A stretch of DNA of 64,000 bases from Candidatus Thiodiazotropha sp. Lineage in GTDB: Bacteria > Pseudomonadota > Gammaproteobacteria > Chromatiales > Chromatiaceae. Numbering within the stretch: position 1 is the first letter of the stretch; each line of letters opens with the position of its first letter. The position numbers and the translations under genes were made by a program. This document shows, one piece after another, positions 36,668-60,926 of the stretch. Below the pieces are notes generated by a model. That model saw nothing but the letters and a program-made list of their open reading frames with translations. It was not told the DNA's origin and made no database searches. The stretch lies in contig JBEVXH010000010.1 of the NCBI GenBank assembly GCA_040506195.1, forward strand, positions 16,993 to 80,992. Reading direction: 5' to 3'.

Positions 36668-36715
36668 GGGCTTCGTCCCCTTCCTTTTCGCACACAAATT
36701 TTATGCCGAGCTCCC

Positions 36716-37468: not shown

Positions 37469-37474
37469 CGATCC

Positions 37475-39121: not shown

Positions 39122-39133
39122 ACTCCCCTCCAG

Positions 39134-40603
39134 TTACTCGTCGTCCCAGACGAACCCGATGCGTCTGCTTTTCTTTTCTATTTCTTTAGGCAGACTGTTC
39201 AATGCGGCATCGATACTTTCCTGATCAAGCTGCGTCTTCCCGGACTTGGCAGCAAGCCGTGCGGCCTCACGTATAACAAAAGCCGAATCGGAGAGAGCCT
39301 TACCCGTGAGTGCATCGAGAATCTTGTCCAGGTTAAGGTCATCAGATGTCGGCAGCTTGCTCAATAGTGAGTCGACCAGAGACGACACTTCTTCCCTCGA
39401 CGGCATACCGACTTCAATGATGTGGTCGAAACGCCCGCGACGCAGAATGGCCGGATCGATCATTTCGATCATGTTCGTCATGGCGACTAATAGCACCTTG
39501 TTCTTGATGGCTTCGGGAATGCGTCGAAGGAACTCGGCAACCTCTTCAACATGATGCAATCCTGACGAGCTGCCAGATTTCCTATCCGTGAGGAAAGACT
39601 CCATCTCATCAATGACGACCACGGACGGAGCGCCATCAATCGCCGTATCGAAAACCTCAGAGATCTTCTTACTGGTTTCGTGAATATAGGGGCTGCCAAC
39701 GCTGCTGGAATCAATCGAGTAACTGGGCCAATCGATAAATTCGACAAGCCGTTCCACGGCGAAGGTCTTGCCACATCCCGGGGGTCCATGCAGGACGATG
39801 GCTGAAGGGAAATCAATGCCCAGAGCCTGATATTTCTCCGCATTAAAGATGATGTCGATGACGTGTTCGTTAAAAAATTCCTCGAGGTGAGGTCGCCCTG
39901 GAAGTTTGAATATCTTGGATTCGGCCATATCCCCAGGCGATTGTGGCTTTTCAGGTTCGACAGCCTCCTTCGCAGTGGCAGTCTTTGCATCGCTCCGGGA
40001 TTGAGAAGCCGGCTTGCGCTTAGCCAGTAGTCCAGCGTCTGCAGGTACAGCAAACCCGGCAGCGTTTATGATTTCCGCCAGATCACCAGCGGGCATCCAG
40101 CCGGTCAGACTGGTCAACCGCCTGAAGGATTCAGTTGATATGACGACCCCACCGGTAATCCAGGTGCCCAAGACCACCTCATCATCTACGTGGGGTGTCA
40201 GCGTCCAGCCCGGGAGCAATCTGGAGTACTGCTCCACATAAACGGCATCATGGAAAGAGGCACCCTCTGACAATTTCCGGGACTCTTTGAGCGCGAACGC
40301 AAAGGCTATTGCATCGACCTTGCTTTCCGGTGATTTCCCATTCTCAACCGGCGTAAATGCGTACTTCTTATGGCTGCACATACTCCGGAATGATTCACCC
40401 CCGAAAGCGACATCTTCGAACAGGGATTCATCGAGAAAACCGAATTCATTCCACTTCTGCGCCAGCTCTGGACACATAAGCAGGATATTGTTCGAGCCAT
40501 TGGTATCGAATATCTGCCACTCGTCTCCTGAATAGAGGAGCGACCGGACATTCGATCCGTCCGGCAATTCATACCCTTTAGGTAGCCATAAGTCCTTCGC
40601 CAT
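39134..40603 (-). CDS. AAA+ ATPase with an unknown N-terminal domain
   Basis: GPPGCGKT, VVVIDEME, DPAILRRGRFD (second region of homology), C-terminal RRIGF. Confidence 0.9.
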   Translation of the reverse strand: MAKDLWLPKGYELPDGSNVRSLLYSGDEWQIFDTNGSNNILLMCPELAQKWNEFGFLDESLFEDVAFGGESFRSMCSHKKYAFTPVENGKSPESKVDAIAFAFALKESRKLSEGASFHDAVYVEQYSRLLPGWTLTPHVDDEVVLGTWITGGVVISTESFRRLTSLTGWMPAGDLAEIINAAGFAVPADAGLLAKRKPASQSRSDAKTATAKEAVEPEKPQSPGDMAESKIFKLPGRPHLEEFFNEHVIDIIFNAEKYQALGIDFPSAIVLHGPPGCGKTFAVERLVEFIDWPSYSIDSSSVGSPYIHETSKKISEVFDTAIDGAPSVVVIDEMESFLTDRKSGSSSGLHHVEEVAEFLRRIPEAIKNKVLLVAMTNMIEMIDPAILRRGRFDHIIEVGMPSREEVSSLVDSLLSKLPTSDDLNLDKILDALTGKALSDSAFVIREAARLAAKSGKTQLDQESIDAALNSLPKEIEKKSRRIGFVWDDE

Positions 40604-40606
40604 GAA

Positions 40607-46487: not shown

Positions 46488-49069
46488 TTCTGTCCGCCTC
46501 CCGCCAATGAGGAAAGTTTTTTGCTCGTCAATCTTGCCAGAATGTCATCACTTCCCAGTTTCGCTTCGGCCATCTTGCGTGCAGCAAGCTCCCTCCATTC
46601 AATGACTCCAGGCGACTGGAAAGAGTCCCAGAGCGTACGCATTGTTGTCATGCATTCTTCTGAAAACTTTTTGAAGTCTTCAACGCTTATGTAAAAAACA
46701 TCTCCCGTGTGAGGTTCAGCAGCAAAATGCAATTTGTCCGACGTCGAACAAAATACGACCGAGAAACTTACTCCAGGGTGTTCTGCTGCGAGGGTGTCTG
46801 GATGGGCCTTGGCTTGAAGTGTTTTCTCTTTTGAGACGACAGGATTCTCTCCGGTTGCCGTGTAATCCTCAAAAACAACGCCCTGTCGTCCAAAGATCCA
46901 CCACGGGTCAGGATCACCGGATCGCTCAATGTTCCCCGATTCAAAACCCAGCAGGCGACCGAGCTTGACCTGCGCTTCTTCAAACGGCTTTGATTCCGTG
47001 CTTGAAAGCCCTTCCCGGATGGCCTGGAAATATTTTTCGATTTTCACGCTGCCAGACTTTCCAAACCGCTCAAGGACTCCTTCTATACGCTCGATGCGCT
47101 CTCCATAAATGACATCGACGGGTGCTTCCTGCGTCTGGTTGGAGAGCAGCTTTTGAATCTGTTTGAGCCATGGCAACGTACTGGCGCATGAAAAGGCAGC
47201 AGAAAAATGTTCTTGAGCTATCTGTGCTTGCTCCGCCTGGAAGGCTGCCGAGCCAGCAAGGTAATTCCAAAGAGCAGAATATCCCTTCAGATCATGCCCA
47301 CCGGCGAGGCTGGCCAACACGTCTTTTGCGGAAGAAAGCGCGCTGTCAAAATCGCCGGACCAAAGGGCATCGTGAAATTTCACTTCATGCACAACAGAGT
47401 TCCCGACCGGACTTGCCGATGGTATGGGCGATTGAGTCAGTTCGTCTCTTGTTTCCAATATATGGTTATCGGCCGATTTCCACTCTGGCCCGTGGGCAAC
47501 GAATATGTCGATGTTATCCCCCAGTTCAGACGGATTATCGACTTTTGATTGTTCGACACCAAAATTGACTTCGGCCTGAAGTTCCGGATGTAGTGTTTCT
47601 CGCTTTTCCGGCATGTGGAAATACTGATGCACCTTGTCGCCGATAATCACCACGAGCGCATAGTCGGTTGATGAGCGTGTGCATCTTCCTACCGCCTGAG
47701 TGATCCTGGTGCAGATGCGAACCTGGAAGAGGACAGAGGCCCCAAGGCGGCTGATGATGAAGCGCTCCTGAAGATTTGTAGATTCCGGAAGACCATAGAT
47801 GATCAGGTATCTGCATTCGTCTCCGATCAGATCGATTCCGTCATACCTGTTCGCCAGAACCGCAATGGCGGAACCAGCTTGGGTAAATGATTTCTTCGAC
47901 GCCTCCAGTTGTGCGGCGTCAAAGAGGGTATGACCCTGCGTCGCCGGAAGTACTCCAATGACTTCTCTGACTTTGTCAGCATCACGGTTACTTGGGGTGA
48001 GGACGAGTGCTCTGTCAAATTTCGTAGTCCAGGAAATCGCGAGGCTCAATGAAGCCGCTTCATCCCACACCCTCATAGGAAACACGAAGAAGCGTCGACC
48101 GATTCCCTGCTTATCCCAGCCCTCTGGAGCGGGTATCCGTTCGATTTTCTTCCGCCCGAAAATTCTTTCCAGATCCCCGCCTTCTCCGAGAGTCGCGGAC
48201 ATATAAATGCGCTGCCGCGCATTCTGAAACGGCGCAAAGCTCTTGGTGGGCGCGATAAGAGGACGAATGAGAATGGAATTGCTGGTGTAATAGAGATGAC
48301 AGGCGTGGAGGTGATCTCTGATCATGCGCCATCGATAACCGTATTCCTCCGGGCTCTCATCGTCTCTGGAGGCAGTGTCAATCGCTGCCGTCAGAGCGGT
48401 CCTGCACTTGAGTAAATAAGGCGTCGGGATCTTGTTCACGAATGACGTATCAAGCGATCCCTCATTACCCTGGTCGTAACGGAGCTGGTCATTTTCCGTG
48501 GTGTAAGGCGCGATGATCTGCCAGATTGCATCGAAGGTAGATTCATCCTGATAGCGCCGGACCTCCAACGACCAGAAACTCGACACATAATTCTCGGCGG
48601 CGTGGGCATCGTCAAAAATGAGTGTATGGACATCGCTGAAAAACGGATTTGTGTTGAACAGAGCGCTGTAGGTGGCAACGCCTATTGATTCGCAATTGTT
48701 GAAAGCGGTCTTGTCGGCCTCCGGGTACTGGTGTTTGGACCCCGAGAAATCAAGAGCGTTGATTCCGTATTTTTCTTTGGCCTGTTCAACGACCTGATGG
48801 ACAAGCTGTTTGGTAGGACAAAGCAGTACGCACCTCTCCCGTTTTGTTCTTCTGCGCCACTCTGCGATCAGGAGGCCAACCAGGGTCTTGCCGCTGCCGG
48901 TGGGCAGCTCAAGTGCGATATCACGATTGTCGACATGGTCCATGTAGTTGCGGAGCATGTCTGCCTGCTGCGCAAGAAGGCCTTCTACGGTACGGTCCCG
49001 CAGATCACGGAACAGCGACTCAGGATCTTTGATGGATACCGAATATTTCTGAGGGATTTTAAATGCCAT
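46484..49069 (-). CDS. SF2 (DinG/XPD-like) helicase with a C-terminal nuclease-like domain, Hna-like
   Basis: LPTGSGKT, DDAH, SATLG, YDGIDL, QAVGRCTR; C-terminal GDPDPWW...VVFED. Start at MAFK (49069) behind an AGGAGG RBS. Confidence 0.75.
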   Translation of the reverse strand: MAFKIPQKYSVSIKDPESLFRDLRDRTVEGLLAQQADMLRNYMDHVDNRDIALELPTGSGKTLVGLLIAEWRRRTKRERCVLLCPTKQLVHQVVEQAKEKYGINALDFSGSKHQYPEADKTAFNNCESIGVATYSALFNTNPFFSDVHTLIFDDAHAAENYVSSFWSLEVRRYQDESTFDAIWQIIAPYTTENDQLRYDQGNEGSLDTSFVNKIPTPYLLKCRTALTAAIDTASRDDESPEEYGYRWRMIRDHLHACHLYYTSNSILIRPLIAPTKSFAPFQNARQRIYMSATLGEGGDLERIFGRKKIERIPAPEGWDKQGIGRRFFVFPMRVWDEAASLSLAISWTTKFDRALVLTPSNRDADKVREVIGVLPATQGHTLFDAAQLEASKKSFTQAGSAIAVLANRYDGIDLIGDECRYLIIYGLPESTNLQERFIISRLGASVLFQVRICTRITQAVGRCTRSSTDYALVVIIGDKVHQYFHMPEKRETLHPELQAEVNFGVEQSKVDNPSELGDNIDIFVAHGPEWKSADNHILETRDELTQSPIPSASPVGNSVVHEVKFHDALWSGDFDSALSSAKDVLASLAGGHDLKGYSALWNYLAGSAAFQAEQAQIAQEHFSAAFSCASTLPWLKQIQKLLSNQTQEAPVDVIYGERIERIEGVLERFGKSGSVKIEKYFQAIREGLSSTESKPFEEAQVKLGRLLGFESGNIERSGDPDPWWIFGRQGVVFEDYTATGENPVVSKEKTLQAKAHPDTLAAEHPGVSFSVVFCSTSDKLHFAAEPHTGDVFYISVEDFKKFSEECMTTMRTLWDSFQSPGVIEWRELAARKMAEAKLGSDDILARLTSKKLSSLAGGGQK

Positions 49070-49202
49070 GGAGTAACCCTCCTTGGTTTCTATTGCATGC
49101 ACCGCCGTAACTGGCGAGCTTTTCGGCAACCATGTTCGAAGTTACGCCCTCGCAGAGCGTGTCGAGAACCATCTGTTCGACCGTGTTTTCTTCGTTAAAC
49201 AT
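49059..49202 (-). pseudogene. Vestigial 47-codon copy of the hsdR 5' end
   Basis: Manual translation gives MFNEENTVEQMVLDTLCEGVTSNMVAEKLASY..., versus functional HsdR MTYFNEENTVEQLVLDTLSDKDNQWCVAEPQTDY. Confidence 0.85.
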
Positions 49203-50376
49203 GGGTGGCTCCCTTTGTCACATCATTCGCAATTTGCCGTTGAAGCCCAAGAAGAACTTCAACATGCTTAGTTAGCTGTTCCTCACCAGCACTAATGGTT
49301 GAAAGTTTATCCACGATTTCTCTTTGAACATGAAGGCCAGGAACAAGCAGCTTATGCTGTCGCAGATCCTTTCCATTAACTTTCCATATTCCATTTGTGG
49401 ATTTAGCAAAAGCCAGGAGTTTTCCGTGAGTCAAGGGGTCATTCCATTGCTCGACTGCAAAGGCGGGAAGAATCTGTTTTTCATCGAAAGCTATTCGGAT
49501 GAGAAGATCAGGATAAAAACAATTCTCTGGTAGTTCTGATACAAGACCAGCTTTTCCACAGAGGGTTTTGTTGCCGTTACCTCTCACAACTAAAATATCC
49601 CCCGAAGCTAAACGAAACTTCTCAAGGTCCGATGGTGAGATTTCGGCATATTTTGTATTTCCATTCGGATCAACTTTTCCATCCCTTACCGCACCAATAC
49701 TTAATGTGGGACAACCTGCTTCTGATGCGTTAGTCTTAGGAGAAAAGCCATTCCGAGGTGGTGTGCTGTATAATTTACTGCATGCCACCTCACGGGTTGA
49801 CTCATGTCGCAAAGACGCTCTAAGTGTTTGGCTTTTTAGGGCGGCAAGTGCGTTCAAAGATTCTTTGTATTTCTGCACTGCATCATCCGCTGTCCACAGG
49901 ATCTCGGCAATGCGCTTCTGTTCATCGAGGGGTGGCAGCGGGAACTCCTGCACTTTCAAAGCTTTCCAATTGATCGTTGGTGAGAGTGATCCCACCGATA
50001 TTTCAATGGCCCGCTCCATGAACATATCGGACTGCAGAAAGAACGGCAGAAAATCTGGGAGAATATGCTTTCCTGTTGGTCTCAGAACCATTCCATGAGC
50101 AGAGAAGAAACCGTCATGCGGAGCAATTGCGACTCGGCGAAGATAGGCATTGCGCTTTGCAAAAAGTAAGTCGCCTTTTTTCATGCGAAGCTTTTGACCT
50201 TTCAGGTCGGCATCAGAACCCCAGCGTTTGACATGTAGCGAGCCCGAGTCGAGGTGCTCTAACCCGATATAATTACGGCTGTCTTCTTCGGTTGGTTGGC
50301 CTTGTTCTCGGACGCATTCAACAAAGTCCCCAAACTTCAATATTTTCCAAGCAGGCTTCAGATTTTGCTCACTCAT
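49195..50376 (-). CDS. hsdS: Type I RM specificity subunit
   Basis: Two TRDs separated by PLPPLDEQKRIAEIL; second conserved region PGLHVQREIV. Confidence 0.92.
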   Translation of the reverse strand: MSEQNLKPAWKILKFGDFVECVREQGQPTEEDSRNYIGLEHLDSGSLHVKRWGSDADLKGQKLRMKKGDLLFAKRNAYLRRVAIAPHDGFFSAHGMVLRPTGKHILPDFLPFFLQSDMFMERAIEISVGSLSPTINWKALKVQEFPLPPLDEQKRIAEILWTADDAVQKYKESLNALAALKSQTLRASLRHESTREVACSKLYSTPPRNGFSPKTNASEAGCPTLSIGAVRDGKVDPNGNTKYAEISPSDLEKFRLASGDILVVRGNGNKTLCGKAGLVSELPENCFYPDLLIRIAFDEKQILPAFAVEQWNDPLTHGKLLAFAKSTNGIWKVNGKDLRQHKLLVPGLHVQREIVDKLSTISAGEEQLTKHVEVLLGLQRQIANDVTKGATHV

Positions 50377-51899
50377 AGAGCACCTCCTCCTATTCGTGCG
50401 CCCTCAAGCACATTGATGAGGTCACTCATAGAATCCCGGAGATCCATCGAGCTTTCCTGCCAGTTGGTAATAGCGTCGGTCAAACTGACATCTTCGTTAC
50501 TGCCATTTCCATGACTTCGATCCGAACGAATGACATTCACATAAAGTGGCAAATTCAAGCTGCACTCTTTTCCCCGGATCTCGTCGTTACTGACCACCCG
50601 GGCAAAACCGCCCTCATCGCCAAAGGCCTGGTAAGCGGAGACAATACGCTGGAGGTGGTCATCAGTAAGAAAGCTCTGCGCTCGCTCGCGGGTCACCTCG
50701 TTCACCGCGTTGATGAAGAGCACCTTGTTCCTGCGCTCCTTGGGCTTGTTCATCCGGCAGATAACAACGCAGGCTTCCATGGGTGAGTTGTAGAAAAGGT
50801 TAGGCCCGAGACCCAGCACACACTCCACTACGTCATGGGCGACCAGCTTCTCACGCATAGCCAGTTCCTCGTTGCGGAAGAGGACGCCATGCGGAAACAG
50901 GATGGCGCAGCGGCCGCTCCTGGTCTTCATGCTCTGGATGATGTGCTGCCAGAAGGCATAGTCGGCGCGGCCCTGTGGCGGAGTGCCGTAGATGTTCCGG
51001 CCCCACGGATCGGCGGCCCAGGCTTCGCGGTCCCACTGCTTGATGGAATACGGCGGATTGGCCAGCACCACATCGAACTCCATGAGCCGGTCGCCTTCGA
51101 CGAATGCGGGATGGGCCAGGGTATCGCCCCGGACGATGCGGAAGTCCTCGATGCCGTGCAGGAACAGGTTCATGCGGCCGATGGCCGAGGTGAGCAGGTT
51201 GCGCTCCTGACCATAGAGTCTAAGGTTGCGCCATTCCTTGTTCTGCCGCTTGAGATGGGTGACGGCGGAGAGCAGCATGCCGGCCGAACCACACGTCGGG
51301 TCATAGATCGACTCGCCCGGCCTGGGTTCGAGCATCTCGGTCATCAGGTGAACCACGGTGCGGTTGGTATAGAACTCCGCAGCGGTATGGCCGGAATCGT
51401 CGGCGAACTTCTTGATCAGAAATTCATAGCCCACACCCAGCTCATCCTCCGGGCAGTTGGTAACTGAAAGCGTCTGAGAGCTAAAATGCTCAATCAGTTC
51501 GCGCAGCATGTGGTCAGGCAGGCGGTCCTTATTGGTCCACTGGGCATCGCCGAAGACCCCGTAGAGGGTGTCAGGGTTGGCCTTCTCTATGGCTCGCAGG
51601 GCATCCTGGATGGCCTTGCCCACATTCTTGACCTTGGTGCGGGTCGCCTTCCAGTGGGCATCCTCCGGGATCTGGAAACGGTGCTGCTCGGGCAGCGCAG
51701 CGTATTCCTGGTCACCGCCAGATTCTTCCAGCGCATCGGCCAGTTCCTCGTCGTACACGTCGCACAGCCGCTTGTAGAACAGTAGAGGGAAGATGAATTG
51801 CTTGTAATCCCCGGCGTCGATGTAGCCACGCAGCAAGGTAGCCGCACCCCAGAGATAGGATTCCAGCGCTGATTGGGAAATGTGCTTGCTCTTCTTCAT
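50373..51899 (-). CDS. hsdM: Type I RM methyltransferase subunit M2 (NPPY)
   Basis: DPTCGSAGML and VLANPPY. Start at ATG 51899 (ATGA overlap). Confidence 0.93.
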   Translation of the reverse strand: MKKSKHISQSALESYLWGAATLLRGYIDAGDYKQFIFPLLFYKRLCDVYDEELADALEESGGDQEYAALPEQHRFQIPEDAHWKATRTKVKNVGKAIQDALRAIEKANPDTLYGVFGDAQWTNKDRLPDHMLRELIEHFSSQTLSVTNCPEDELGVGYEFLIKKFADDSGHTAAEFYTNRTVVHLMTEMLEPRPGESIYDPTCGSAGMLLSAVTHLKRQNKEWRNLRLYGQERNLLTSAIGRMNLFLHGIEDFRIVRGDTLAHPAFVEGDRLMEFDVVLANPPYSIKQWDREAWAADPWGRNIYGTPPQGRADYAFWQHIIQSMKTRSGRCAILFPHGVLFRNEELAMREKLVAHDVVECVLGLGPNLFYNSPMEACVVICRMNKPKERRNKVLFINAVNEVTRERAQSFLTDDHLQRIVSAYQAFGDEGGFARVVSNDEIRGKECSLNLPLYVNVIRSDRSHGNGSNEDVSLTDAITNWQESSMDLRDSMSDLINVLEGARIGGGAL

Positions 51900-52123
51900 C
51901 GCGCTATCACTTCCCATTCGTATATGTCCGTTGGAATATCAACGCCATCCAGGGAGTCCCAATCGTAGTCACCGGTTGCCTGGGTGTAGACGTCATCAGC
52001 CGCAGCCAGGGCTGAGTGATAGGAACCGAGCAACTCGTCCTTGAACCACAGGCCCCAGCGGCCATTGGCTTGCGGTTTGATGAGGAAACGGCCGATCGGC
52101 GACCTGTACTGATACATCTTCAT
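51896..52123 (-). CDS. 75-aa hypothetical protein between the two hsdM genes
   Basis: ATGA overlaps at both ends; globular-looking, Trp/Asp-rich sequence. Confidence 0.7.
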   Translation of the reverse strand: MKMYQYRSPIGRFLIKPQANGRWGLWFKDELLGSYHSALAAADDVYTQATGDYDWDSLDGVDIPTDIYEWEVIAR

Positions 52124-53637
52124 AGCAAGCCCTCCCGTATCAGCAGGCCCTTCAGGCGATCTTCTGCTGCATACGCTGCCTGCAGCGATTCATTGAGGTT
52201 GGCGACGGCCTGATCGATGGTCATGAATTCTTCCTCGATCACCGGTTCCACGTAACGAGGGATATTCAGGTTGAAGTCGTTTTCCCGGATTTCATCGAGC
52301 GTGACCACCCGGCAGATCCCTTCGACATCCTGATAGCCTTCGTACCAGTGGTGGATGTTGTCCACGTGCTCCGGCAGCAGCTCGTTCTGCGCCCGGCCGG
52401 TCTTGAACTCCTTCGAGGCATCGATGAACAGCACCTTCTGGCGGTGCGGTTTCGGCTTACTGTCCCGAAAGACCAGCACACAGGGCGCGAGACCGGTGCC
52501 GTAGAAAATGTTCTGGCCGAGACCGATCACCGCTTCGAGGATGTCCATCTCCAGCAGCTTGCGGCGGATTTTGCCTTCCTTGGACATGCGGAACAGCACG
52601 CCATGGGGTACTACCACCGCCATGCGGCCCGTTTTACGGGCCATGGATTTAATCATGTGCTGGACCCAGGCGAAGTCGCCGGACTTGGCCGGCGGCAACC
52701 CGGCAAAGTTGCGGCCGTAGGGATCATTGACCCAAACATCATCCCCCCACTTTTCCAGGGAGAACGGTGGATTGGCGATGACGCAATCAAAGGTGGCGAG
52801 GCTGTCGCCCGAGTAAAAGGCAGGCAAGCGCAGCGTGTCACCGCGTTCGATATGGAAATCTTCCGCGCCGTGGAGAAAGAGGTTCATCCGGGCAATGGAG
52901 GATGTGGTCAGGTTCTTTTCCTGGCCATAAAGCTTGCCCAGCATGAGGTTCTCGTCACCGCCATGCTCTTTGACATGGTGCAGCGCCTCGAGAAGCATGC
53001 CACCGGTGCCGCAGGCTGGGTCATAGATGGTTTCCCCGGCCTTGGGCGCAAGGATGCGAACCATCAGCGCGACCACGGAACGCGGAGTATAGAACTCACC
53101 GGCCTTCTTGTTGGTGAGGTCGGCAAATTTCTTGATCAGGTATTCGTAGGCCTGGCCGAGGATGTCCGCCTTGCAGTGTTCATTGCCCAGGTTGAGCGAC
53201 GAGAAGTGTTCGATCAGGTCCTTGAGCAGTGCGTCCGAAAGGCGGTCCTTGTTGGTCCACTGGGCATCGCCGAAGATGCCGTGCAGGGTGTCGGGATTGG
53301 CCTGCTCGATGCAGCGCATGGCCTTCTGGAGTGCATGACCGATATTGGCGCTTTTTGCCCGGACATCTTGCCAATGGCAGCCCTCCGAAACCTGGAATCG
53401 GTGGTTCTCGGGGAACTGCGCGAATTCCACGTCACCGTCGGACTCTTCCAGTGCAACGGCATACTCTTCGTCATAAACATCAGAGAGCCGTTTGAAGAAA
53501 AGCAGCGGGAAGATGTAGGTCTTGAAGTCGGCCGCATCGACAGGACCGCGCAGGATATTGGCCGCCTCCCAGAGATGCCCGGAGAGGGTCCCGATATCCA
53601 GATCGACTGAATTGTTTTTTCCGTTCCTTGGGCTCAT
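52120..53637 (-). CDS. hsdM: Type I RM methyltransferase subunit M1 (NPPF)
   Basis: DPACGTGGML, VIANPPF, GEFYTP. Confidence 0.93.
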   Translation of the reverse strand: MSPRNGKNNSVDLDIGTLSGHLWEAANILRGPVDAADFKTYIFPLLFFKRLSDVYDEEYAVALEESDGDVEFAQFPENHRFQVSEGCHWQDVRAKSANIGHALQKAMRCIEQANPDTLHGIFGDAQWTNKDRLSDALLKDLIEHFSSLNLGNEHCKADILGQAYEYLIKKFADLTNKKAGEFYTPRSVVALMVRILAPKAGETIYDPACGTGGMLLEALHHVKEHGGDENLMLGKLYGQEKNLTTSSIARMNLFLHGAEDFHIERGDTLRLPAFYSGDSLATFDCVIANPPFSLEKWGDDVWVNDPYGRNFAGLPPAKSGDFAWVQHMIKSMARKTGRMAVVVPHGVLFRMSKEGKIRRKLLEMDILEAVIGLGQNIFYGTGLAPCVLVFRDSKPKPHRQKVLFIDASKEFKTGRAQNELLPEHVDNIHHWYEGYQDVEGICRVVTLDEIRENDFNLNIPRYVEPVIEEEFMTIDQAVANLNESLQAAYAAEDRLKGLLIREGLL

Positions 53638-53843
53638 TCCGATTTATCCGACCCCGCAATATCCGCCGCACCACCAGCCTTGACCCACTCGTCGACTTCG
53701 TATTTCTTGAACTTCCAAAGGCGGCCCATGCGGTGAGCGGGCATACCCCCCTTGTCGATCCACTTGTACACGGTGTCATTACTGACCCCGAGGTGTTTGC
53801 ATATCTCGGTGATTGAAAGCCAGCGGTCTTCCGTCTCAACCAT
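53634..53843 (-). CDS. Excisionase/VrlI-like HTH DNA-binding protein
   Basis: WLSITEICKHLGVSNDTVYKWI...PAHRMGRLWKFKKYEVDEWV. Confidence 0.85.
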   Translation of the reverse strand: MVETEDRWLSITEICKHLGVSNDTVYKWIDKGGMPAHRMGRLWKFKKYEVDEWVKAGGAADIAGSDKSE

Positions 53844-54000: not shown

Positions 54001-54097
54001 TCTAAATCGTGCGAATCTATTGGCTCTAACGGCTTCTCTATGAAGTCACCCTTCCCACTATTCCTCCATCCGTCACCGGATTGTCAAAATCAAATAT

Positions 54098-54115
54098 GTG
54101 TAGTATATAGTACAC
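54098..54115. promoter_or_regulatory. Palindromic operator directly before the XRE start codon
   Basis: GTGTAGTATATAGTACAC, 16/18 self-complementary, overlaps a TATAGT -10-like hexamer; no Shine-Dalgarno sequence. Confidence 0.65.
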
Positions 54116-54466
54116 ATGACATTCGGAGAATACATCCGTGAACATCGCGAGGCCCTGAAGTCACAGGATCGGCGGTTTTCCGTCCGGCAGGTCGCCCAGC
54201 GAATTGGCGTGGAACCAGCCTACCTCAGCAAGATAGAACGCGGGGATGTGGCGCCACCGTCCGAGGCAAAAATCCGGGCATTGGCCGAGGAGCTTGACGA
54301 GGATCCGGACGTGCTGCTGGCATTGGCCGGGAAGGTCTCGTCGGATTTACAGGCGATCATCCGGAAACGGCCGCAACTGTTCGCTGACCTGATCCGCCAG
54401 CTTAAATCCGCACCGGATCACGCTCTGTTGCGAATTGCCCGGGATGTCCGTGATGGCGAGTGGTAA
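54116..54466 (+). CDS. XRE-family HTH regulator
   Basis: SVRQVAQRIGVEPAYLSKIERG. Confidence 0.88.
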   Translation: MTFGEYIREHREALKSQDRRFSVRQVAQRIGVEPAYLSKIERGDVAPPSEAKIRALAEELDEDPDVLLALAGKVSSDLQAIIRKRPQLFADLIRQLKSAPDHALLRIARDVRDGEW

Positions 54467-54498
54467 CGCCTGAATAGTGACTCAGGGGAGAAAAGACA

Positions 54499-55497
54499 AT
54501 GATCGAACTACTGAACAACCAACTGACCTTCCGGTTTCCGGAGGTCCACGAAAAAGCGGTGTGCAGCATCGACTTCCAGCGCACCCTGCGGATCCCGGAT
54601 GACAACCGGGAATACCCCCTCCCCCCGGGCCTGGGTCGTTTCCCGGTGGAGCACGTGGATGACTTCGCAGACCAGTTGCCTGATTCCTGGCGGACACATG
54701 GTGGCGTCTTCATCCCCATGTATCAGTCTGAGGCGCTGTGGATCAATTTCTCCGGTGACTACCCCTGCGCCGTCAAGATTGCCGCTGGCAAGATCAATGC
54801 GGTTTCCGGGGAACCCTGGAGCAATGGGCTTTCGGCTGATTCACAGGACTATGCGGTGATTCCGGAACAGCCCTGGTTGGATGGTTTCAACGTCTCGGAG
54901 GACTTTATCCGGCAGTTTGTCGCCATGCCGCTGGGTGAAGGCTTCACAGCCGAGGAGCAGATTACGGGGACGGCTGAACATGGCGGACTCCAGATCATCG
55001 TCTACCCGATGAAGCATGATGTTTACGTCGAACATTTCGAGCGAACCGTGCAAGCAGACATGGACTATCTCGATATGCCGATGTTCAGTCGCACGGTCTG
55101 CGAATCGGCCGCCCCCGATATGGGGCTTGCTCCTGGCGGCTTGATGCGGCAGGAGATCTACGAGGACGAGTACGGCATCGATGCCTGGGATCAGGAAAAT
55201 GGCTTCCGTTGCTTCATCCATCTGGCCAACAGTGAGCAATATCTGGCAATCACCGGTCACCAGCCACCGCATACGCCGCCAACGGCCAATGATTACACGA
55301 GTGCCGGTCTGCCCTGGTTTGACTACTACAGTGATGGCAAGGCGCTGTCCGGTTCGGAAACATTAGGCAAGCTGACCAGTGTCGCTGCTAAGGTGATCGA
55401 GAAAGGCAAAGGACTGCTGCCGGACAATGAACCGGTTCATCCTAAAACTGTCAAGATAATCAGCAAAGGCAATGTGGTCCGGGATGGGGAGTTCTGA
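54499..55497 (+). CDS. Conserved hypothetical protein (332 aa)
   Basis: GGGGAG RBS; FQRTLRIPD, PMYQSEALW, QPWLDG and RQFVAMPLG blocks; function unknown. Confidence 0.75.
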   Translation: MIELLNNQLTFRFPEVHEKAVCSIDFQRTLRIPDDNREYPLPPGLGRFPVEHVDDFADQLPDSWRTHGGVFIPMYQSEALWINFSGDYPCAVKIAAGKINAVSGEPWSNGLSADSQDYAVIPEQPWLDGFNVSEDFIRQFVAMPLGEGFTAEEQITGTAEHGGLQIIVYPMKHDVYVEHFERTVQADMDYLDMPMFSRTVCESAAPDMGLAPGGLMRQEIYEDEYGIDAWDQENGFRCFIHLANSEQYLAITGHQPPHTPPTANDYTSAGLPWFDYYSDGKALSGSETLGKLTSVAAKVIEKGKGLLPDNEPVHPKTVKIISKGNVVRDGEF

Positions 55498-55677: not shown

Positions 55678-56214
55678 ATGAAGCACAAGGTTCTCGACAA
55701 AAACTATCAAAATGAAGTAACGAGGCTTTTCACGTCTGTTTTCACATCATCCGAAGGAGACGAAGAAGGTAAGCTAATTGGCAATCTTGCCTCAGAGCTA
55801 TCCTCCAATATCGACAATGAAGAGATAATCTGTCTCGGCACATATGAAAATGAATCGCTTATTGGTTCTATTTTCTTTACTCGCCTTCGGTTTAATGAGT
55901 CTATTCTGGTTTATATGCTCGCTCCGGTTGCAGTGAGCACTAAACATCAGGGAAAAGGCGTAGGACAGGCGCTAATCAATTATGGACTTAATGAACTGAA
56001 AAATCGTTCTGTGAGTGTTGCTATCACATATGGTGATCCATCCTTCTACTCAAAGGTGGGATTTGAACCCCTGTCAGAAGATGTCATCCAGGCCCCTCTA
56101 AAGCTCTCAATGCCAGTAGGCTGGCTTGGCCAATCATTAACGGGAGAGCCAATTCCAGCTATTAATGAGCGACCCATATGCGTTAAGGAATTTAATGATC
56201 CCGTTTATTGGTAA
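55678..56214 (+). CDS. GNAT N-acetyltransferase (YhbS-like)
   Basis: LAPVAVSTKHQGKGVGQALI acetyl-CoA motif, YGDPSFYSKVGF. Confidence 0.9.
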   Translation: MKHKVLDKNYQNEVTRLFTSVFTSSEGDEEGKLIGNLASELSSNIDNEEIICLGTYENESLIGSIFFTRLRFNESILVYMLAPVAVSTKHQGKGVGQALINYGLNELKNRSVSVAITYGDPSFYSKVGFEPLSEDVIQAPLKLSMPVGWLGQSLTGEPIPAINERPICVKEFNDPVYW

Positions 56215-56502: not shown

Positions 56503-58068
56503 TTATCGCTTCGCCCCCTTAGACACAACGGCCTTACCGATACTTCCACCTTGTCGTCCTGCATCTTGAGCGGTCCGTGTGAATTCGCCTTGTACCGAAT
56601 TGATCGAGCGCCCGATATGCAACCCCGCCCACGCCATCATCCCGCTCCAGAGCAACGGCAAACCCAGATAGAGGCTTGTCGTGATCATATTCAGCAGCAT
56701 GCGCTTGATGTCGTGCTCACCGGGGTTGGCAAACATCTGCAGGAAGACATTCACATCCGGATACATGGACAGGATGAGGTTCTGATCCACCCACAGCGCC
56801 AGGTACCAGAGCACGCTCCAGAACTTGACGGTAAAGATAGCCATGGCGCCGATGACCATCATGAAGATGGAATAACGCGACAGCACCACGATCATGGGGA
56901 GCAAGGCATAGATGCCGAGCAGGAGCACGGCCTGCACCATCGGGAGGGCCTGAAGGACCGCGGTCATGGTGACCGAGAACAGCGCCGAGGCGGCCACCAC
57001 GCCGCCCGATGCCAGGCCGCCTTTGGCGACATTCTCTACCGTACTGAGCAACCCGGTACTGCCGGAGTTGTGGGCCACGAGGTCGTTGTTCGACCACGAT
57101 GGTGGAGCATTCGCCAGAACGGTCTTGGCCACTGCATCATTTTGCTGTTCGCTGGCCAGCGCCGGCGCGATGGCAACCACGAGGCCTGAAAAACCGGCCG
57201 ATGTGGCATCGGCCTCGGTGATCAACTTTTCACGCAGCCCCGCCGAGGCATCCTCCCACCACTGCTTGCAGTAAGGCCTACCCCAGGTGGGTGGAGCCGC
57301 AGGATCATATTCGGTATCACGAGCAGCATTGTAGGCCCAACGGCTGACCTGCGTGGTAGCACGCAGGGTGTCATAGTAGCCCGGCGTATTACGATACACT
57401 TGCGAACCCATCCAGTCCGGATCATCAGGGCCATACGTTGTCAGCAGGGCATTGACCGCGGCGGTGGCAGGTCGTTCCGACTGGTACATCGACCGGGCCG
57501 GAATGTAGCACTGGCTAAAGAAATCACTGACTTCCTGGCGGAGGCGCGGGTCAGCAATAGTCGCGAGCCGCGCCTGTTGTTCGTAGGTACGCATGTCCGC
57601 AGCACTTGGAAGGCCTTCGACCACCGCGTGATTGAAACCCGAGGTCATCGAGAGTACCGCATACCACCACACAGGGATGTTCACCGTGGCCGGCGAACCG
57701 GTGAAGCCGGTGGAACCGTAGGTGCTCTGGGGTGCGGCTACAGTCGCCGTCGGCGGCGTGAGATCGACCAATGTTGGTGGCGGCGTGTAGTTGAGTGAAG
57801 CCGCGTTCAGTGGCGTCAATGCAGCGGGTTGTCCGGCCAAAACAACCACCAGTAGCGCGATGAAGAGCTCCAGCTCCATGCGCCGCAGTGACAAGCCGGT
57901 GACGGTACCGAACTCACCGCCTTGCGCCGGTTCCCGCCAGTTGTCGATCAGGATGCCGAGGAACGGCAGGAACACGATACCGGTGCCGACCAGCACATCC
58001 CACAAAATGCCGTAGAAGGTCCAGCCGAACAGTGTCGTAAAGAGTTCGAGATAGCTGTCGACGGTCAT
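56503..58068 (-). CDS. ICE conjugal transfer protein, TraG N-terminal domain (PFGI-1 class)
   Basis: MTVDSYLELFTTLFGW, VPVWW-like IPVWWY, CYIPARS, C-terminal TMs. Confidence 0.88.
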   Translation of the reverse strand: MTVDSYLELFTTLFGWTFYGILWDVLVGTGIVFLPFLGILIDNWREPAQGGEFGTVTGLSLRRMELELFIALLVVVLAGQPAALTPLNAASLNYTPPPTLVDLTPPTATVAAPQSTYGSTGFTGSPATVNIPVWWYAVLSMTSGFNHAVVEGLPSAADMRTYEQQARLATIADPRLRQEVSDFFSQCYIPARSMYQSERPATAAVNALLTTYGPDDPDWMGSQVYRNTPGYYDTLRATTQVSRWAYNAARDTEYDPAAPPTWGRPYCKQWWEDASAGLREKLITEADATSAGFSGLVVAIAPALASEQQNDAVAKTVLANAPPSWSNNDLVAHNSGSTGLLSTVENVAKGGLASGGVVAASALFSVTMTAVLQALPMVQAVLLLGIYALLPMIVVLSRYSIFMMVIGAMAIFTVKFWSVLWYLALWVDQNLILSMYPDVNVFLQMFANPGEHDIKRMLLNMITTSLYLGLPLLWSGMMAWAGLHIGRSINSVQGEFTRTAQDAGRQGGSIGKAVVSKGAKR

Positions 58069-58421
58069 GCCCCGCTCCCCTGCAGTACGGCCAGCACCTG
58101 ACCAAGCAGGTTCTGACCCAATACCAGTTCGATCACGACGAGCCAGGTCACGATACGCCAGCGTACAGCGAGCAAGTTCGTGGCCTGTGTCTCATCCAGA
58201 CGTCCACAACGTTGAAGGGCGTTCACGACCCATGGCCAGCCCATCGCCAACAGGGCAATCAGCAAGACCCGGATGCCCGTCATGAGTGGCTTCAAGACCT
58301 CGATCCTTGTCTGCACCGCGACTACAGAGGATGTCTCGACCGAATGCCAGAGAATGCCGCCCGCCCCCAACGCCAGACCGAACGTCAGCAGGGTCAGCAA
58401 AATAAACCAGCGCCGACGCAT
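58065..58421 (-). CDS. Small ICE membrane protein upstream of traG
   Basis: Three hydrophobic segments; ATGA overlap with traG. Confidence 0.7.
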   Translation of the reverse strand: MRRRWFILLTLLTFGLALGAGGILWHSVETSSVVAVQTRIEVLKPLMTGIRVLLIALLAMGWPWVVNALQRCGRLDETQATNLLAVRWRIVTWLVVIELVLGQNLLGQVLAVLQGSGA

Positions 58422-58431
58422 GGCTAATCCG

Positions 58432-59835
58432 TTATTGGACACGGCCATTGCTCAGCGGACGCGGATCGATGGTGGGGACTTCTGGCGTTTTCAGGGACGA
58501 TTGCCGACGGGCCGCGGCGCGTTGAAGCAAAGTCGCAATCGTGTCCGAGACCACCTCCTTGCGCACCCGGGTCTCGAACAACAGGTTCTCGATCTCCTTG
58601 TCGAGCTCGGCGATGGACTTGTCCGCGTGCTCGCGTGCCACCGCGGTCGCATAGACCTCCGGCACCTGGCGGCCGGAAAGCAACAAACGACGGGCATACA
58701 GCGCCTTCTCCACCGTGCGGGCCGTGCTGATCTCGGAAACCAGCCGTCCCATGATGAGGCTCTGTTCGGAGGCCGGCATATCCCGAATCGCCTCGATGAC
58801 CTGGCGGGTGATGGCAACGCCAGGGGCAGTAATATTGTCCAAGTTGGCCAGTGTCGGAGGTGTTGCGCCGGAGACCAGGCTCTGGATTTCCGTCGTTACG
58901 GTAGTCGCCTCCTGATTGAGCTTTGGCAGCAGTCCGGTACCGGGGATACTGTCCTTGCGGCAGGTATCACAGGTGGTGACAATATTTTCACCAACCACAT
59001 CGACGACCCAGTTACGCGCCTCGGTAGGCGTTGTCCAGATCTCAGTCAGGCGGGTGGCCGATGCAGGAGGCACCGGGCCTGCCGTCGTGATCGGACGATT
59101 CATATTGATGTTGTACCCGGCCTTGACGATGTCGCCGGTAAATTCCAGCACCGGCTGTCCGGAGCCCCCGGCCTGCCTACCGATCCAGGGCACGCCATTG
59201 TCCCCGTTAGCGGTCTCGACGGCGTCCTTGGCGGTTACGGCATCATTACCACCAACACCCATCTGAAGCTTCCAGTCATTGCCTTTGGACAGCGTGATGA
59301 GATCCGCATAGGGGTTCTTGCCTTTGGCGATCTCCGCTTCCATCTGTTTGCAGGACATGGTGGCGAGTTGCATGGTCTCTTCCGCTTTGAGCAGGGCATT
59401 CTGGAATAGATCATAAAGTCCTGGATTGGCTCGCTGCAGGATGAGTGCCGGAAGTGATGCAATGGCCGCACTCGCTGCAGCCGTCATGGCATTCATCATG
59501 TTATCGATGCCTGAACCGATATCGTTCAGGGTATTGGTGACGGCCGCCACCGGATCGAACCGACCGCAGCTATAGCCCAGACCCAATTGGGCCGAACCGC
59601 CGAGGGTGACTGAGGTCACGGCTGGATTGGCGGGTACGGAGACGGGTTCCGCCCCGCCGATCTTGTAGTACCAGAGACTGTCCTCGGTGGGTGCCTGGGT
59701 GGCTTGCACCAGCGTGTATGGAGCAAACATCAGGCAAAGTCCGATGAACAGCAATGAGTAACGGGGTTGGCCTTTTATGGGTGAGCATTTCTTATACAAC
59801 ATGACTCTCTTGATCATGGTGGATAGGGAAACCAA
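58432..59835 (-). CDS. Integrating conjugative element protein, PFL_4711 family
   Basis: LWYYKIGGAEP, LILQRANPGLYDL, GVPWIG. Confidence 0.85.
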   Translation of the reverse strand: MVSLSTMIKRVMLYKKCSPIKGQPRYSLLFIGLCLMFAPYTLVQATQAPTEDSLWYYKIGGAEPVSVPANPAVTSVTLGGSAQLGLGYSCGRFDPVAAVTNTLNDIGSGIDNMMNAMTAAASAAIASLPALILQRANPGLYDLFQNALLKAEETMQLATMSCKQMEAEIAKGKNPYADLITLSKGNDWKLQMGVGGNDAVTAKDAVETANGDNGVPWIGRQAGGSGQPVLEFTGDIVKAGYNINMNRPITTAGPVPPASATRLTEIWTTPTEARNWVVDVVGENIVTTCDTCRKDSIPGTGLLPKLNQEATTVTTEIQSLVSGATPPTLANLDNITAPGVAITRQVIEAIRDMPASEQSLIMGRLVSEISTARTVEKALYARRLLLSGRQVPEVYATAVAREHADKSIAELDKEIENLLFETRVRKEVVSDTIATLLQRAAARRQSSLKTPEVPTIDPRPLSNGRVQ

Positions 59836-60926
59836 TCGAGTGAATACAAAAACATCTGCCCTCGGCGGTTACAACACTTGTAGGGACGCCAGAGATTCCA
59901 GGCATAGTCCCCGGCCCCATCCACACGCCCGCCACCCCAACCGCTGAAACTGGCGAGGTCATTGCTACCAAATACACTGCAGGTCAATTCCGGCAGGGGC
60001 ACGAGCATCTGCCAGGTGCCGGTGGAGCGGTCCTTTTCCCGCAACGGACCCGGCGGCCAGACCCGCTGACCTGAAAAGCTCGGGATCCAATGATTGACCA
60101 GTCCGCCAAGCCCGTCGGGGATCCAATTGTCGATGATTCTGATCAGGTCGTTGTGCATATAAGGCGCACCGGAGAGCGGTACATAGACATGGGGCTGACC
60201 GGCACGGGTGACGATATCCCCGGCCCGCTGCGCATTGATAGCGGCAGCTTTGGGCTCTTCAGCCTGAGTGGTCCAGCCGGTGCGAGGATAGACCCCACCC
60301 CAGGTCTGCAGTGGCCAGGTACCGATTTCGCGCAATCCGGGCAACAGGCTGGCCGGATAGAAGATCTCCGGCACCTCCTGTCGCCAGGACAAGGCATCCA
60401 GGCCCGATTGGAAGTAAGGGAAGAAAGGGGTTGTCTGGGATTGGCAGAGCAACCCCACTCCGGTGGACACACTGGCCAATGAGGCGACCGGGTGGCCGAT
60501 GGCATCGGTCTCACGAAACACCAGGTTGCGGTGTTCCCTGGGCTCGGTACTACCCTCGGTGCGATTGCCAGCACTGTCGATAGGAATAGGCAGCAGGCTT
60601 CCCAGCAGAGTCGTTGCCGCAGTCTTCTGGGCAAGCCCCAAGGTTGCGCGGATCTCCACCCAGGGATTGCCTCCCAGTTCGTTGTAGCTGCTGACCACCA
60701 AGTCCGGATTGTAGTGCCCGACCTTGAGCGAGGCCCTGACACTGCAACCGGACCAGGAACAGCGCAACCAGAAACAGGTGCCGATCGGCATCCAGCGCAT
60801 GCAGGAAAATGCCGCCGTTGTCGTCTGGGCAACGATCTGTGGTGTGGTCGTTGTACCGGAGAATCCTTTGACGGGAACCCATAGTGCAATGGCAAGACAG
60901 AACGATAGACACCTCCCGTGGATCAT
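59814..60926 (-). CDS. Integrating conjugative element protein, PFL_4710 family (TraU-like)
   Basis: GTCFWLRC...KVGHYNPDLVVSSY, WGGVYPRTG, AWNLWRPYKCC. Confidence 0.85.
   Translation of the reverse strand: MIHGRCLSFCLAIALWVPVKGFSGTTTTPQIVAQTTTAAFSCMRWMPIGTCFWLRCSWSGCSVRASLKVGHYNPDLVVSSYNELGGNPWVEIRATLGLAQKTAATTLLGSLLPIPIDSAGNRTEGSTEPREHRNLVFRETDAIGHPVASLASVSTGVGLLCQSQTTPFFPYFQSGLDALSWRQEVPEIFYPASLLPGLREIGTWPLQTWGGVYPRTGWTTQAEEPKAAAINAQRAGDIVTRAGQPHVYVPLSGAPYMHNDLIRIIDNWIPDGLGGLVNHWIPSFSGQRVWPPGPLREKDRSTGTWQMLVPLPELTCSVFGSNDLASFSGWGGGRVDGAGDYAWNLWRPYKCCNRRGQMFLYSLDWFPYPP

What the first reader, a model, noticed from the sequence alone, without database searches (positions are those of the whole stretch)
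54098..55497. XRE regulator and its unknown partner end in the same C-terminal motif (VRDGEW / VRDGEF)
Seen: the XRE protein ends ...ARDVRDGEW* and the 332-aa neighbour ends ...GNVVRDGEF*, with different codons. The pair is preceded by a 16/18 palindrome and a probably leaderless start. From memory, the 332-aa core (FQRTLRIPD, PMYQSEALW, QPWLDG, RQFVAMPLG) resembles uncharacterised fungal proteins often fused to ubiquitin; this is unverified. Inference: a two-gene switch in which both tails compete for one binding pocket or act as a shared degron or processing signal. Possibly a new regulator-effector or toxin-antitoxin-like module beside the defence operon.
Basis: partly seen in the sequence, partly recalled or inferred. 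Interest (0 to 1): 0.68.

Follow-up and report, generated by a model that had tools for sequence, protein, structure and literature searches.

The report
Repressor mimics its partner's tail
A small self-repressing XRE regulator and an uncharacterised 332-residue protein travel together as a mobile two-gene cassette in many bacterial phyla. The regulator ends in the same six-residue tail that marks the partner's very large family, which points to an undescribed way of coupling a repressor to its effector.

Summary
XRE (54116-54466) ends VRDGEW and the 332-aa protein (54499-55497) ends VRDGEF. In the whole 4.5-Mb genome, no other open frame ends in this motif.

The pair recurs, XRE first on the same strand, in 66 of 80 genome loci and 59 of 79 metagenome loci from many phyla. 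Both tails are kept at the amino-acid level while their codons vary. No third gene is conserved, so the cassette is independent of the adjacent type I RM/Hachiman island and of the ICE backbone.

A GTGTAC-TATRTA-GTACAC palindrome abuts the ATG and covers the -10 box. It is conserved almost everywhere, which indicates a leaderless, self-repressed operon.

The partner has no Pfam, NCBIfam, PADLOC or PDB match. It belongs to a family of more than 3,800 clusters (50% identity) that includes eukaryotic and giant-virus members, some fused to Ub, UBA, RING, kinase or vWA domains. The family hallmark is a C-terminal V-x-D-G-x-W, so the XRE carries the family's ancestral tail. Similarity between the two proteins is confined to the last 6-10 residues.

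My best reading (about 0.45) is tail mimicry: the repressor's tail docks on the partner's conserved core. An AlphaFold2 fusion test was inconclusive, and the biochemical function remains unknown.

The parts
54081..54086 (+). -35-like hexamer TTGTCA of the cassette promoter
   Evidence: Read from the sequence. TTGACA/TTGCCT-like hexamers sit at the same distance in most related loci. The strict consensus scan did not call it.
54096..54117 (.). Operator: 22-bp palindrome ATGTGTAGTAT|ATAGTACACAT (20/22), which covers the -10 box and the first two bases of the XRE start codon
   Evidence: Inverted repeat found. The core GTGTAC-TAT(A/G)TA-GTACAC is conserved directly in front of the XRE ATG in nearly all of about 65 loci from several phyla.
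54104..54109 (+). -10-like TATATA, 17 nt after the -35-like hexamer and 6 nt before the ATG, which implies a leaderless mRNA
   Evidence: Sequence and conserved position.
54116..54466 (+). XRE-family HTH repressor, 116 aa (HTH at residues ~3-67, helical C-terminal part, then the tail)
   Evidence: Pfam HTH_31 1.4e-11 and HTH_3 4.3e-9. PADLOC capH 1.7e-10. The 116-aa core MTFG...VRDGDW is conserved in 66/80 and 59/79 loci.
54446..54463 (+). XRE tail codons V-R-D-G-E-W
   Evidence: In 61 pairs the tail reads V/I 61, R 60, D 61, G 61, D/E 59 and W 61, with 2-7 synonymous codons at each position. All 59 metagenome XREs end [VI][RK][DE]G.W.
54485..54490 (+). Shine-Dalgarno GGGGAG of the second gene, 8 nt before its ATG
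   Evidence: Sequence. The intergenic gap is 15-57 nt in related loci.
54499..55497 (+). 332-aa protein of a very large uncharacterised family: conserved core, variable loop at ~190-215, and a flexible C-terminal linker that ends in the tail
   Evidence: No Pfam, NCBIfam or PDB sequence hit. More than 8,000 clusters at 90% identity and 3,816 at 50%. AF2 pLDDT 68.9, with no Foldseek PDB match (best E 0.017, TM<0.2). Giant-virus structural relatives were found.
55477..55494 (+). Partner tail codons V-R-D-G-E-F
   Evidence: In 61 pairs the tail reads V 60, R 60, D/E 59, G 60 and F 59, with synonymous variation. Family-wide, about 90% of a second subfamily, including EukProt members, end in DGxW.

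Best explanation
This is a self-contained, horizontally mobile two-gene cassette.

(1) Shown by sequence and conservation: a dimeric XRE repressor is encoded on a leaderless or nearly leaderless transcript. Its promoter -10 and start codon lie inside a conserved 20-22-bp palindrome, so the XRE most likely represses its own bicistronic operon.

(2) Shown: the second gene encodes a member of a very large, unannotated protein family that includes eukaryotic and giant-virus members. The family hallmark is a poorly conserved flexible C-terminal linker that ends in a short linear motif, V-x-[DE]-G-x-[WF].

(3) Shown: the XRE carries exactly this motif, in the family's ancestral form VRDGDW, after its C-terminal helices. 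Nothing else in the two proteins is similar.

(4) Inferred: the tail is a docking peptide for the conserved core of the 332-aa protein. The partner's own tail binds there, either in cis as autoinhibition or in trans as oligomerisation. The repressor's mimic tail uses the same site. This tethers repressor and partner in one complex and makes operon expression depend on the amount or state of the partner. The logic resembles type II toxin-antitoxin feedback or the ImmR/ImmA and CapH/CapP pairs, but with a different partner.

(5) Inferred: an unknown trigger that displaces the tail would free or activate the partner and derepress the operon together.

The partner's biochemical activity is unknown. 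Its location in ICEs and defence islands and its patchy distribution suggest a conflict, exclusion or addiction role.
For: Linkage: the XRE lies directly upstream on the same strand in 66/80 genome loci from Gammaproteobacteria, Chloroflexota, Acidobacteriota, Nitrospirota, Krumholzibacteria and others, and in 59/79 metagenome loci. Clustering of all neighbouring ORFs shows that only these two genes are shared. Neighbour families are heterogeneous.

Tails are under protein-level selection. Only these two ORFs in the genome have the tail.

The tail is ancestral to the partner family. Distant members, including EukProt proteins, end in ...VRDGDW or DGxW. In those contexts there is no XRE, and the neighbours lack the tail.

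Similarity between the two proteins is limited to the last 6-10 residues (hhalign).

The XRE tail is retained in all 59 metagenome pairs, even where the partner's own tail has degenerated in 16 of 57. This fits XRE tail binding the partner core as the constrained contact.

Covariation hints: XRE V-R pairs with partner V-R...F in 34 cases, XRE V-K pairs with partner V-[IS]-DGKW in 7, and none are mixed. Euzebya has VADGDW/VTDGTW and Bosea has IDEGEW/VSEGVI.

The operator is conserved at the ATG.
Against: There is no direct evidence of binding. A single-chain AF2 model of XRE-12 aa-partner gave pTM 0.58, lower than the 0.68 of the partner alone, and pLDDT of about 49-59 for the XRE tail, so no confident docking was seen. 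The tool returns no coordinates or PAE, and the short natural linker and blocked C-terminus may bias the result.

The covariation classes may each be a single clade, so they are not independent.

The partner model is only of moderate confidence (pLDDT 68.9), and no pocket was identified.

Toxicity, the trigger and the activity are all unknown.
Confidence: 0.45

Rival explanations
1. Shared degron. Both tails are recognised by one host protease or adaptor, such as a ClpXP/ClpAP-type or tail-specific protease. Repressor and partner are then turned over together, and their ratio sets the switch.
For: Both tails are terminal, follow a flexible segment and end in an aromatic residue preceded by acidic residues. 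Antitoxins and phage or ICE repressors are classically controlled by proteolysis (established knowledge of type II TA and ImmR/CapH systems; CapH/CapP: bioRxiv 10.1101/2022.04.27.489752). Eukaryotic relatives are fused to Ub, UBA and RING domains.
Against: No other ORF in the genome carries the motif, so it is not a general host degron. The cassette works across many phyla, and the family extends to eukaryotes and giant viruses, which share no C-terminus-reading protease. In some subfamilies the motif is followed by 3-8 more residues or by a whole vWA domain, so a free C-terminus is not required.
Confidence: 0.15
2. Common external ligand. Both tails bind a third molecule that is not encoded in the cassette, either a conserved host machine or an invader (phage or plasmid) protein. 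That molecule acts as the trigger by titrating the tails.
For: The cassette sits in ICE cargo and defence islands here, next to RM, Hachiman, TraG and TraU, and often elsewhere. The AF2 fusion did not show XRE-partner docking.
Against: The tail co-occurs with the family core from bacteria to eukaryotes regardless of context. This is most simply explained if the receptor is the core itself. No conserved third gene was found.
Confidence: 0.15
3. Processing or conjugation signal. The tail is cut after the Gly (R-D-G|x-W), as in ubiquitin-like precursors, possibly by the 332-aa protein itself. Cleavage would activate the partner and inactivate or modify the repressor.
For: The Gly at -3 is nearly invariant and the -2 position is variable. 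Eukaryotic relatives carry Ub, an internal Ub ending RLRGGG, UBA and RING.
Against: A sizeable subfamily has V-R-E-[WF] with no Gly. No protease or E1/E2-like signature was found in the partner: there were no Pfam or PDB hits, Cys238 is not conserved family-wide, and there is no HExxH. Removing two residues from a repressor tail has no obvious effect on DNA binding.
Confidence: 0.07
4. The tails have independent roles in each protein, for example XRE oligomerisation and partner folding, and resemble each other by convergence or by an old recombination with no functional coupling.
For: No interaction has been shown. The partner's tail can decay while the XRE's stays.
Against: The XRE carries exactly the consensus tail of its neighbour's family, and only these two ORFs among 30,777 segments have it. 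The pairing persists across phyla and in divergent pairs whose tails change together.
Confidence: 0.05

Closest known systems
CapH/CapP, ImmR/ImmA and DdrO/IrrE modules (an XRE repressor plus a COG2856/M78 metallopeptidase that cleaves it). Sources: bioRxiv 10.1101/2022.04.27.489752; 10.64898/2026.05.16.725639
   Same: A small XRE repressor with a helical C-terminal part forms a two-gene regulatory cassette carried on mobile elements and next to defence genes. The XRE scores against the PADLOC capH model (1.7e-10). The repressor's activity is expected to be controlled by its partner.
   Different: The partner is not a peptidase_M78: it has no Pfam, NCBIfam or PADLOC hit and no HExxH. CapH does not share a terminal motif with CapP. 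Here the cassette regulates itself, not an adjacent immune operon, because no third gene is conserved.
Type II toxin-antitoxin operons with an XRE/HipB-type antitoxin (HipBA, HigBA, MqsRA, Xre-RES)
   Same: The gene order is regulator then partner. A short intergenic gap has its own SD, a palindromic operator overlaps the promoter, the taxonomic distribution is patchy and mobile, and the module often lies in islands.
   Different: The partner matches no toxin family. It is large and exceptionally conserved, at about 65% identity to eukaryotic relatives over the core. The proposed tethering uses a six-residue mimic of the partner's own tail, not an antitoxin domain that wraps the toxin. Toxicity is untested.
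Short-linear-motif mimicry and shared adaptor modules (for example effector-associated domains shared between conflict-system components; SSB-type acidic-aromatic C-terminal tails as docking peptides). This comparison is from general knowledge and was not tested here.
   Same: The same small module on two proteins of one system implies recruitment to one site. The tail is terminal, follows a flexible linker and is acidic plus aromatic.
   Different: Here the module is only six residues, it is the hallmark of a whole unannotated family, and it is copied onto a transcription factor. The receptor is unknown.

Membership tests
CapH/CapP - ImmR/ImmA - DdrO/IrrE (XRE + M78 peptidase) | XRE-family HTH repressor | tested here: met
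   Pfam HTH_31 and HTH_3; PADLOC capH 1.7e-10 over residues 1-110.
CapH/CapP - ImmR/ImmA - DdrO/IrrE (XRE + M78 peptidase) | The partner is a COG2856/Peptidase_M78 zinc metallopeptidase (HExxH) | tested here: not met
   No Pfam, NCBIfam or PADLOC family for the 332-aa protein. No HExxH in the sequence. No PDB sequence or fold match.
CapH/CapP - ImmR/ImmA - DdrO/IrrE (XRE + M78 peptidase) | The repressor is cleaved by the partner on a damage signal | not testable with these tools
   Needs biochemistry.
Type II toxin-antitoxin with XRE antitoxin | Bicistronic operon, antitoxin first, autoregulated through a palindromic operator at the promoter | tested here: met
   Conserved gene order and spacing. 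Conserved palindrome over the -10 box and ATG. Binding itself is inferred.
Type II toxin-antitoxin with XRE antitoxin | The second gene belongs to a recognised toxin family or arrests growth | tested here: not met
   No known toxin family matched. Growth arrest cannot be tested here.
Type II toxin-antitoxin with XRE antitoxin | Direct antitoxin-toxin complex | tested here: inconclusive
   AF2 single-chain fusion gave pTM 0.58 and XRE-tail pLDDT of about 49-59.
Adjacent type I RM / MADS-like defence operon (is the pair a component of it?) | Conserved co-occurrence with the RM/MADS genes | tested here: not met
   Only the XRE and the 332-aa gene are shared among 80 loci. RM genes neighbour the pair in only a few.
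C-terminal degron tags (ssrA-like, tail-specific protease substrates) | The signal must be at the free C-terminus and be used by several host substrates | tested here: not met
   Some subfamilies carry the motif internally or with extensions. No other ORF in the genome ends in it. Actual proteolysis was not tested.

The most novel reading that the evidence does not exclude
The 332-aa protein may define a new fold and a new, very large family, with members in eukaryotic proteomes and giant viruses, whose core function is to read its own V-x-D-G-x-W tail. In eukaryotes and giant viruses this family is wired to ubiquitin signalling through Ub, UBA and RING fusions. In bacteria it would be a mobile conflict effector whose dedicated repressor has copied the tail as a portable docking peptide. 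That would be a previously undescribed principle of regulator-effector coupling by tail mimicry.
Probability: 0.25. Interest if true: 0.85.

Novelty: new variant of a known kind. Interest (0 to 1): 0.66.

Why it matters
If the tail-mimicry reading holds, it gives a simple and testable rule for how a repressor senses its effector: a six-residue peptide that can be deleted, swapped or synthesised. It would also give a first functional handle on one of the larger protein families that still has no annotation. That family has thousands of clusters, cores about 65% identical between bacterial and eukaryotic members, and ubiquitin-system fusions in eukaryotes and giant viruses. The cassette is also a frequent and so far unnamed passenger of ICEs and defence islands, so knowing what it does matters for annotating those regions.

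Tried and rejected
- Family searches on the 332-aa protein: Pfam, NCBIfam and PADLOC gave nothing except a weak PprRE hit at E 0.014, which I treat as noise.
- PDB sequence and profile searches gave nothing.
- AF2 plus Foldseek against PDB gave no match, only generic beta-sandwich hits with TM<0.2. The BFVD search returned only uncharacterised giant-virus relatives.
- XRE-partner docking was tested with a natural read-through fusion (L002, stops read as Gly, 101-row alignment). The result was inconclusive, and the tool returns no coordinates.
- hhalign of the two C-terminal regions found no homology beyond the tail.
- A Cys-His protease idea (RCFVHLxNS) was rejected because Cys238 is Val in distant members.
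- Membership of the RM/MADS operon was rejected.
- A search for other tail-bearing proteins in the genome found none. The same search among neighbours of subfamily-2 members also found none.
- Phage and plasmid collections gave only 2 and 6 distant hits, all annotated as hypothetical.
- Literature: no paper holds 'VRDGDW', and a combined keyword search found none.

Full report
**The observation**

The window encodes a 116-aa protein at 54116..54466 (+) that ends ...LLRIARDVRDGEW, and a 332-aa protein at 54499..55497 (+) that ends ...SKGNVVRDGEF. The two genes are 32 nt apart, and the second has its own GGGGAG Shine-Dalgarno sequence.

The first protein is an XRE-family HTH protein: Pfam HTH_31 1.4e-11 and HTH_3 4.3e-9, and PADLOC capH 1.7e-10.

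The second protein matches nothing in Pfam, NCBIfam or PADLOC. The only hit is a weak PprRE match at E 0.014. It also matches nothing in the PDB by sequence or by profile.

A 22-bp palindrome, ATGTGTAGTAT|ATAGTACACAT (54096-54117, 20/22), overlaps the XRE start codon. A TTGTCA hexamer, a 17-nt spacer and TATATA put the expected transcription start at the ATG itself, with no Shine-Dalgarno sequence. The strict promoter scan did not call this site.

To test chance, I laid out the whole 4.53-Mb genome and scanned all six frames. Of 30,777 stop-to-stop segments of at least 60 aa, only these two adjacent genes end in the motif. The cassette is single-copy in this genome. It is present in 4 of 19 genomes of the genus, counting the window's own genome.

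**Is the pair conserved?**

A scan of one genome per species returned 235 relatives of the 332-aa protein, and 80 loci were kept. They come from Gammaproteobacteria, Alphaproteobacteria, Nitrospira, Chloroflexota, Acidobacteriota, Poribacteria, Krumholzibacteria and others, at 56-96% identity.

In 66 of the 80 loci, a 116-aa XRE with the conserved start MTFG... lies directly upstream on the same strand and ends [VI][RK]DG.W. The exceptions fall into three groups:
- truncated or frameshifted copies and contig ends;
- two single loci;
- a Poribacteria clade in which the gene lacks the XRE and is followed by a ~300-aa gene.

An independent scan of metagenome contigs, seeded with divergent members, gave 59 of 79 loci with an upstream XRE. 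Every one of the 59 ends [VI][RK][DE]G.W.

In 61 pairs the tail residues are invariant or nearly so. The XRE tail reads V/I-R-D-G-D/E-W and the partner tail reads V-R-D/E-G-E/D-F. Each position uses 2-7 synonymous codons, so selection acts on the peptide and not on the DNA.

**Is it part of the neighbouring defence operon?**

It is not. All-against-all clustering of the ORFs in the 80 loci shows that only the XRE and the 332-aa gene are shared. The next most frequent cluster, found in 17 loci, is the TraG_N gene of the same ICE family that lies downstream in the window.

A sample of 145 neighbour clusters hits integrases, TraG/TraU, type I RM subunits, SNF2/ResIII helicases, Cse1, McrBC and DNA methylases. 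It also hits plain housekeeping genes.

In the window, the cassette sits between a cargo island and the ICE transfer genes. The island holds Hachiman HamA/HamB, an Hsp70-like/AAA cluster, and a type I RM system with two HsdM genes and a mad1-like HTH.

**The operator**

The core GTGTAC-TAT(A/G)TA-GTACAC is conserved immediately in front of the XRE ATG in nearly all loci. A TTGACA-like hexamer lies about 17 nt upstream of the TA-rich centre. In a Bryobacterales clade, seven extra bases separate the palindrome from the ATG.

The operon is therefore most likely leaderless or nearly so, and repressed by its own first product.

**What is the 332-aa protein?**

It belongs to a very large family. More than 8,000 clusters at 90% identity share words with it, and there are 3,816 representatives at 50% identity.

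An AF2 model built from a 58-row alignment has pLDDT 68.9 and pTM 0.68. The N-terminal beta-rich core is confident. The model also shows a disordered variable loop at about residues 190-215 and a low-confidence C-terminal linker.

Foldseek finds nothing in the PDB (best E 0.017, TM<0.2). Against BFVD it finds uncharacterised giant-virus proteins, including a 'ubiquitin-like domain-containing protein' of Hyperionvirus.

Relatives occur fused to the following domains:
- ubiquitin plus RING, with a second ubiquitin ending RLRGGG inserted in the variable loop (P0250);
- UBA (P0198);
- a Ser/Thr kinase (P0242);
- vWA (P0137, P0178);
- TPR, Sel1, DUF932 and MshEN.

Some relatives come from EukProt proteomes. 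Their cores are 62-69% identical to ~330-aa bacterial proteins.

**The key point about the tail**

The C-terminal motif is not peculiar to this pair. It is the hallmark of the whole family.

Many distant members end ...VRDGDW...VRDGKW or ...IKDGNW. In a second subfamily (ML.V.V..IGKHFSV...), which includes eukaryotic members, about 90% end DGxW.

In that subfamily the neighbours are different: an HD protein and a ThsB-like TIR, an SNase, or an M78 peptidase. None of them carries the tail.

The XRE of the window's clade therefore carries the family's ancestral tail, and the clade's own partner has drifted to VR[DE]GEF. A profile-profile comparison of the two C-terminal regions aligns only the last 6-10 residues. 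What is shared is a short linear motif, not a domain.

**Hints on what the tail does**

(a) The XRE tail is more constant than the partner's. In 16 of 57 metagenome pairs the partner ends in VREW+extension, VREF, VRESRL, VRKSKR or similar, while its XRE keeps VRDG.W.

(b) The tails change together in divergent pairs. XRE V-R goes with partner V-R...F in 34 cases, XRE V-K goes with partner V-[IS]-DGKW in 7, and there are no mixed cases. Euzebya has VADGDW/VTDGTW and Bosea has IDEGEW/VSEGVI. These classes may each be a single clade, so this is only a hint.

(c) In some subfamilies the motif is followed by more residues or by a vWA domain, or it lacks the Gly. This argues against a signal that needs a free C-terminus and against cleavage after Gly.

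(d) No other protein of the genome has the tail, which argues against a general host degron.

Taken together, the simplest reading is that the conserved core of the family reads the tail, and that the XRE uses a copy of the tail to dock on its partner.

**A direct computational test**

In locus L002 the two genes are in the same frame. I read the stop codon as Gly to obtain XRE-12 aa-partner, and modelled it with a 101-row alignment that mixed paired and unpaired rows.

The model has pLDDT 70.8. pTM fell to 0.58, and the XRE tail has pLDDT of about 49-59, with only a two-residue bridge. This neither supports nor excludes docking. The C-terminus is blocked, the linker is short, and the tool returns neither coordinates nor PAE.

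**Comparison with known systems**

The cassette resembles two known kinds of module:
- CapH/CapP, ImmR/ImmA and DdrO/IrrE, in which an XRE repressor is paired with a protein that controls it (bioRxiv 10.1101/2022.04.27.489752; 10.64898/2026.05.16.725639);
- type II toxin-antitoxin operons with an XRE antitoxin.

It fails the defining test of the first group, because the partner is not an M78 peptidase. It matches no toxin family of the second. Sharing a terminal motif between repressor and partner is a feature of neither. No paper in the held library contains the tail string or a matching description.

**Earlier notes of this scan**

Two earlier AI notes (e1-2640820, e1-985255) describe the same kind of cassette in other genomes and reach similar readings. 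I treated them as leads and re-derived every point here from my own tool calls.

**Verdict**

The cassette is real, mobile and independent of its neighbours.

The interpretation as a two-gene switch with functionally coupled tails is partly supported. The most likely mechanism is tail mimicry, with the repressor tethered to the partner's core (about 0.45). The main rivals are a shared degron or an external ligand (about 0.15 each). The partner's activity is unknown.

I rate the finding as a new variant of a known kind (regulator-effector cassette). There is a non-negligible chance that the partner family and its tail-reading function are categorically new.

Noticed in passing
window 30852-34782 (-): A complete Hachiman system: HamB helicase (1040 aa, PADLOC HamB E=0) and HamA (272 aa, Pfam HamA 1.2e-11).
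   Followed up: partly
window 34790-43102 (-): A co-directional gene cluster with no assigned defence system. It holds an Hsp70-like protein (831 aa, HSP70 2.4e-52), an AAA ATPase (489 aa, weak IetA/TRIP13-like PADLOC hits), two proteins with no family (548 and 250 aa), and a 635-aa protein with a peptidoglycan-binding domain. It lies between Hachiman and the type I RM, so it may be an undescribed defence module.
   Followed up: partly
window 43506-53843 (-): An unusual type I RM-like operon: HsdR (993 aa), a PDC-S28/DinG-like helicase (881 aa), HsdS, two paralogous HsdM genes (514 and 505 aa) separated by a 75-aa ORF (51896-52123), and a mad1-like excisionase-type HTH (53634-53843; NCBIfam MAD1 3.5e-21, just under its cut-off).
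   Followed up: partly
window 55678-56214 (+): A GNAT acetyltransferase (178 aa) lies just downstream of the cassette. It is present in only 3 of 80 related loci, so it is not part of the module.
   Followed up: yes
window 56503-60926 (-): ICE/T4SS backbone genes (TraG_N 521 aa, an unannotated 467-aa protein, TraU 370 aa). The same TraG_N gene follows the cassette in 17 of 80 loci, so one ICE lineage carries the cassette at a fixed position.
   Followed up: partly
L046, L048, L053, L056, L059, L060, L073 (Candidatus Poribacteria): A variant in which the 332-aa-family gene, with an N-terminal extension and the tail VREGxF, has no XRE. It is instead followed by a ~300-aa gene (cluster 7, which an earlier scan note called a Cre-like integrase).
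   Followed up: no
P0250 (684 aa): A eukaryote-like relative with an N-terminal ubiquitin, a second ubiquitin-like segment ending RLRGGG inserted exactly in the family's variable loop, and a C-terminal RING finger.
   Followed up: partly
L165 (Thermincola potens CP002028.1): A subfamily-2 member lies between an OB+HD-domain protein and a ThsB-like TIR protein, near a Schlafen-like helicase. This is a defence-like context without an XRE.
   Followed up: no
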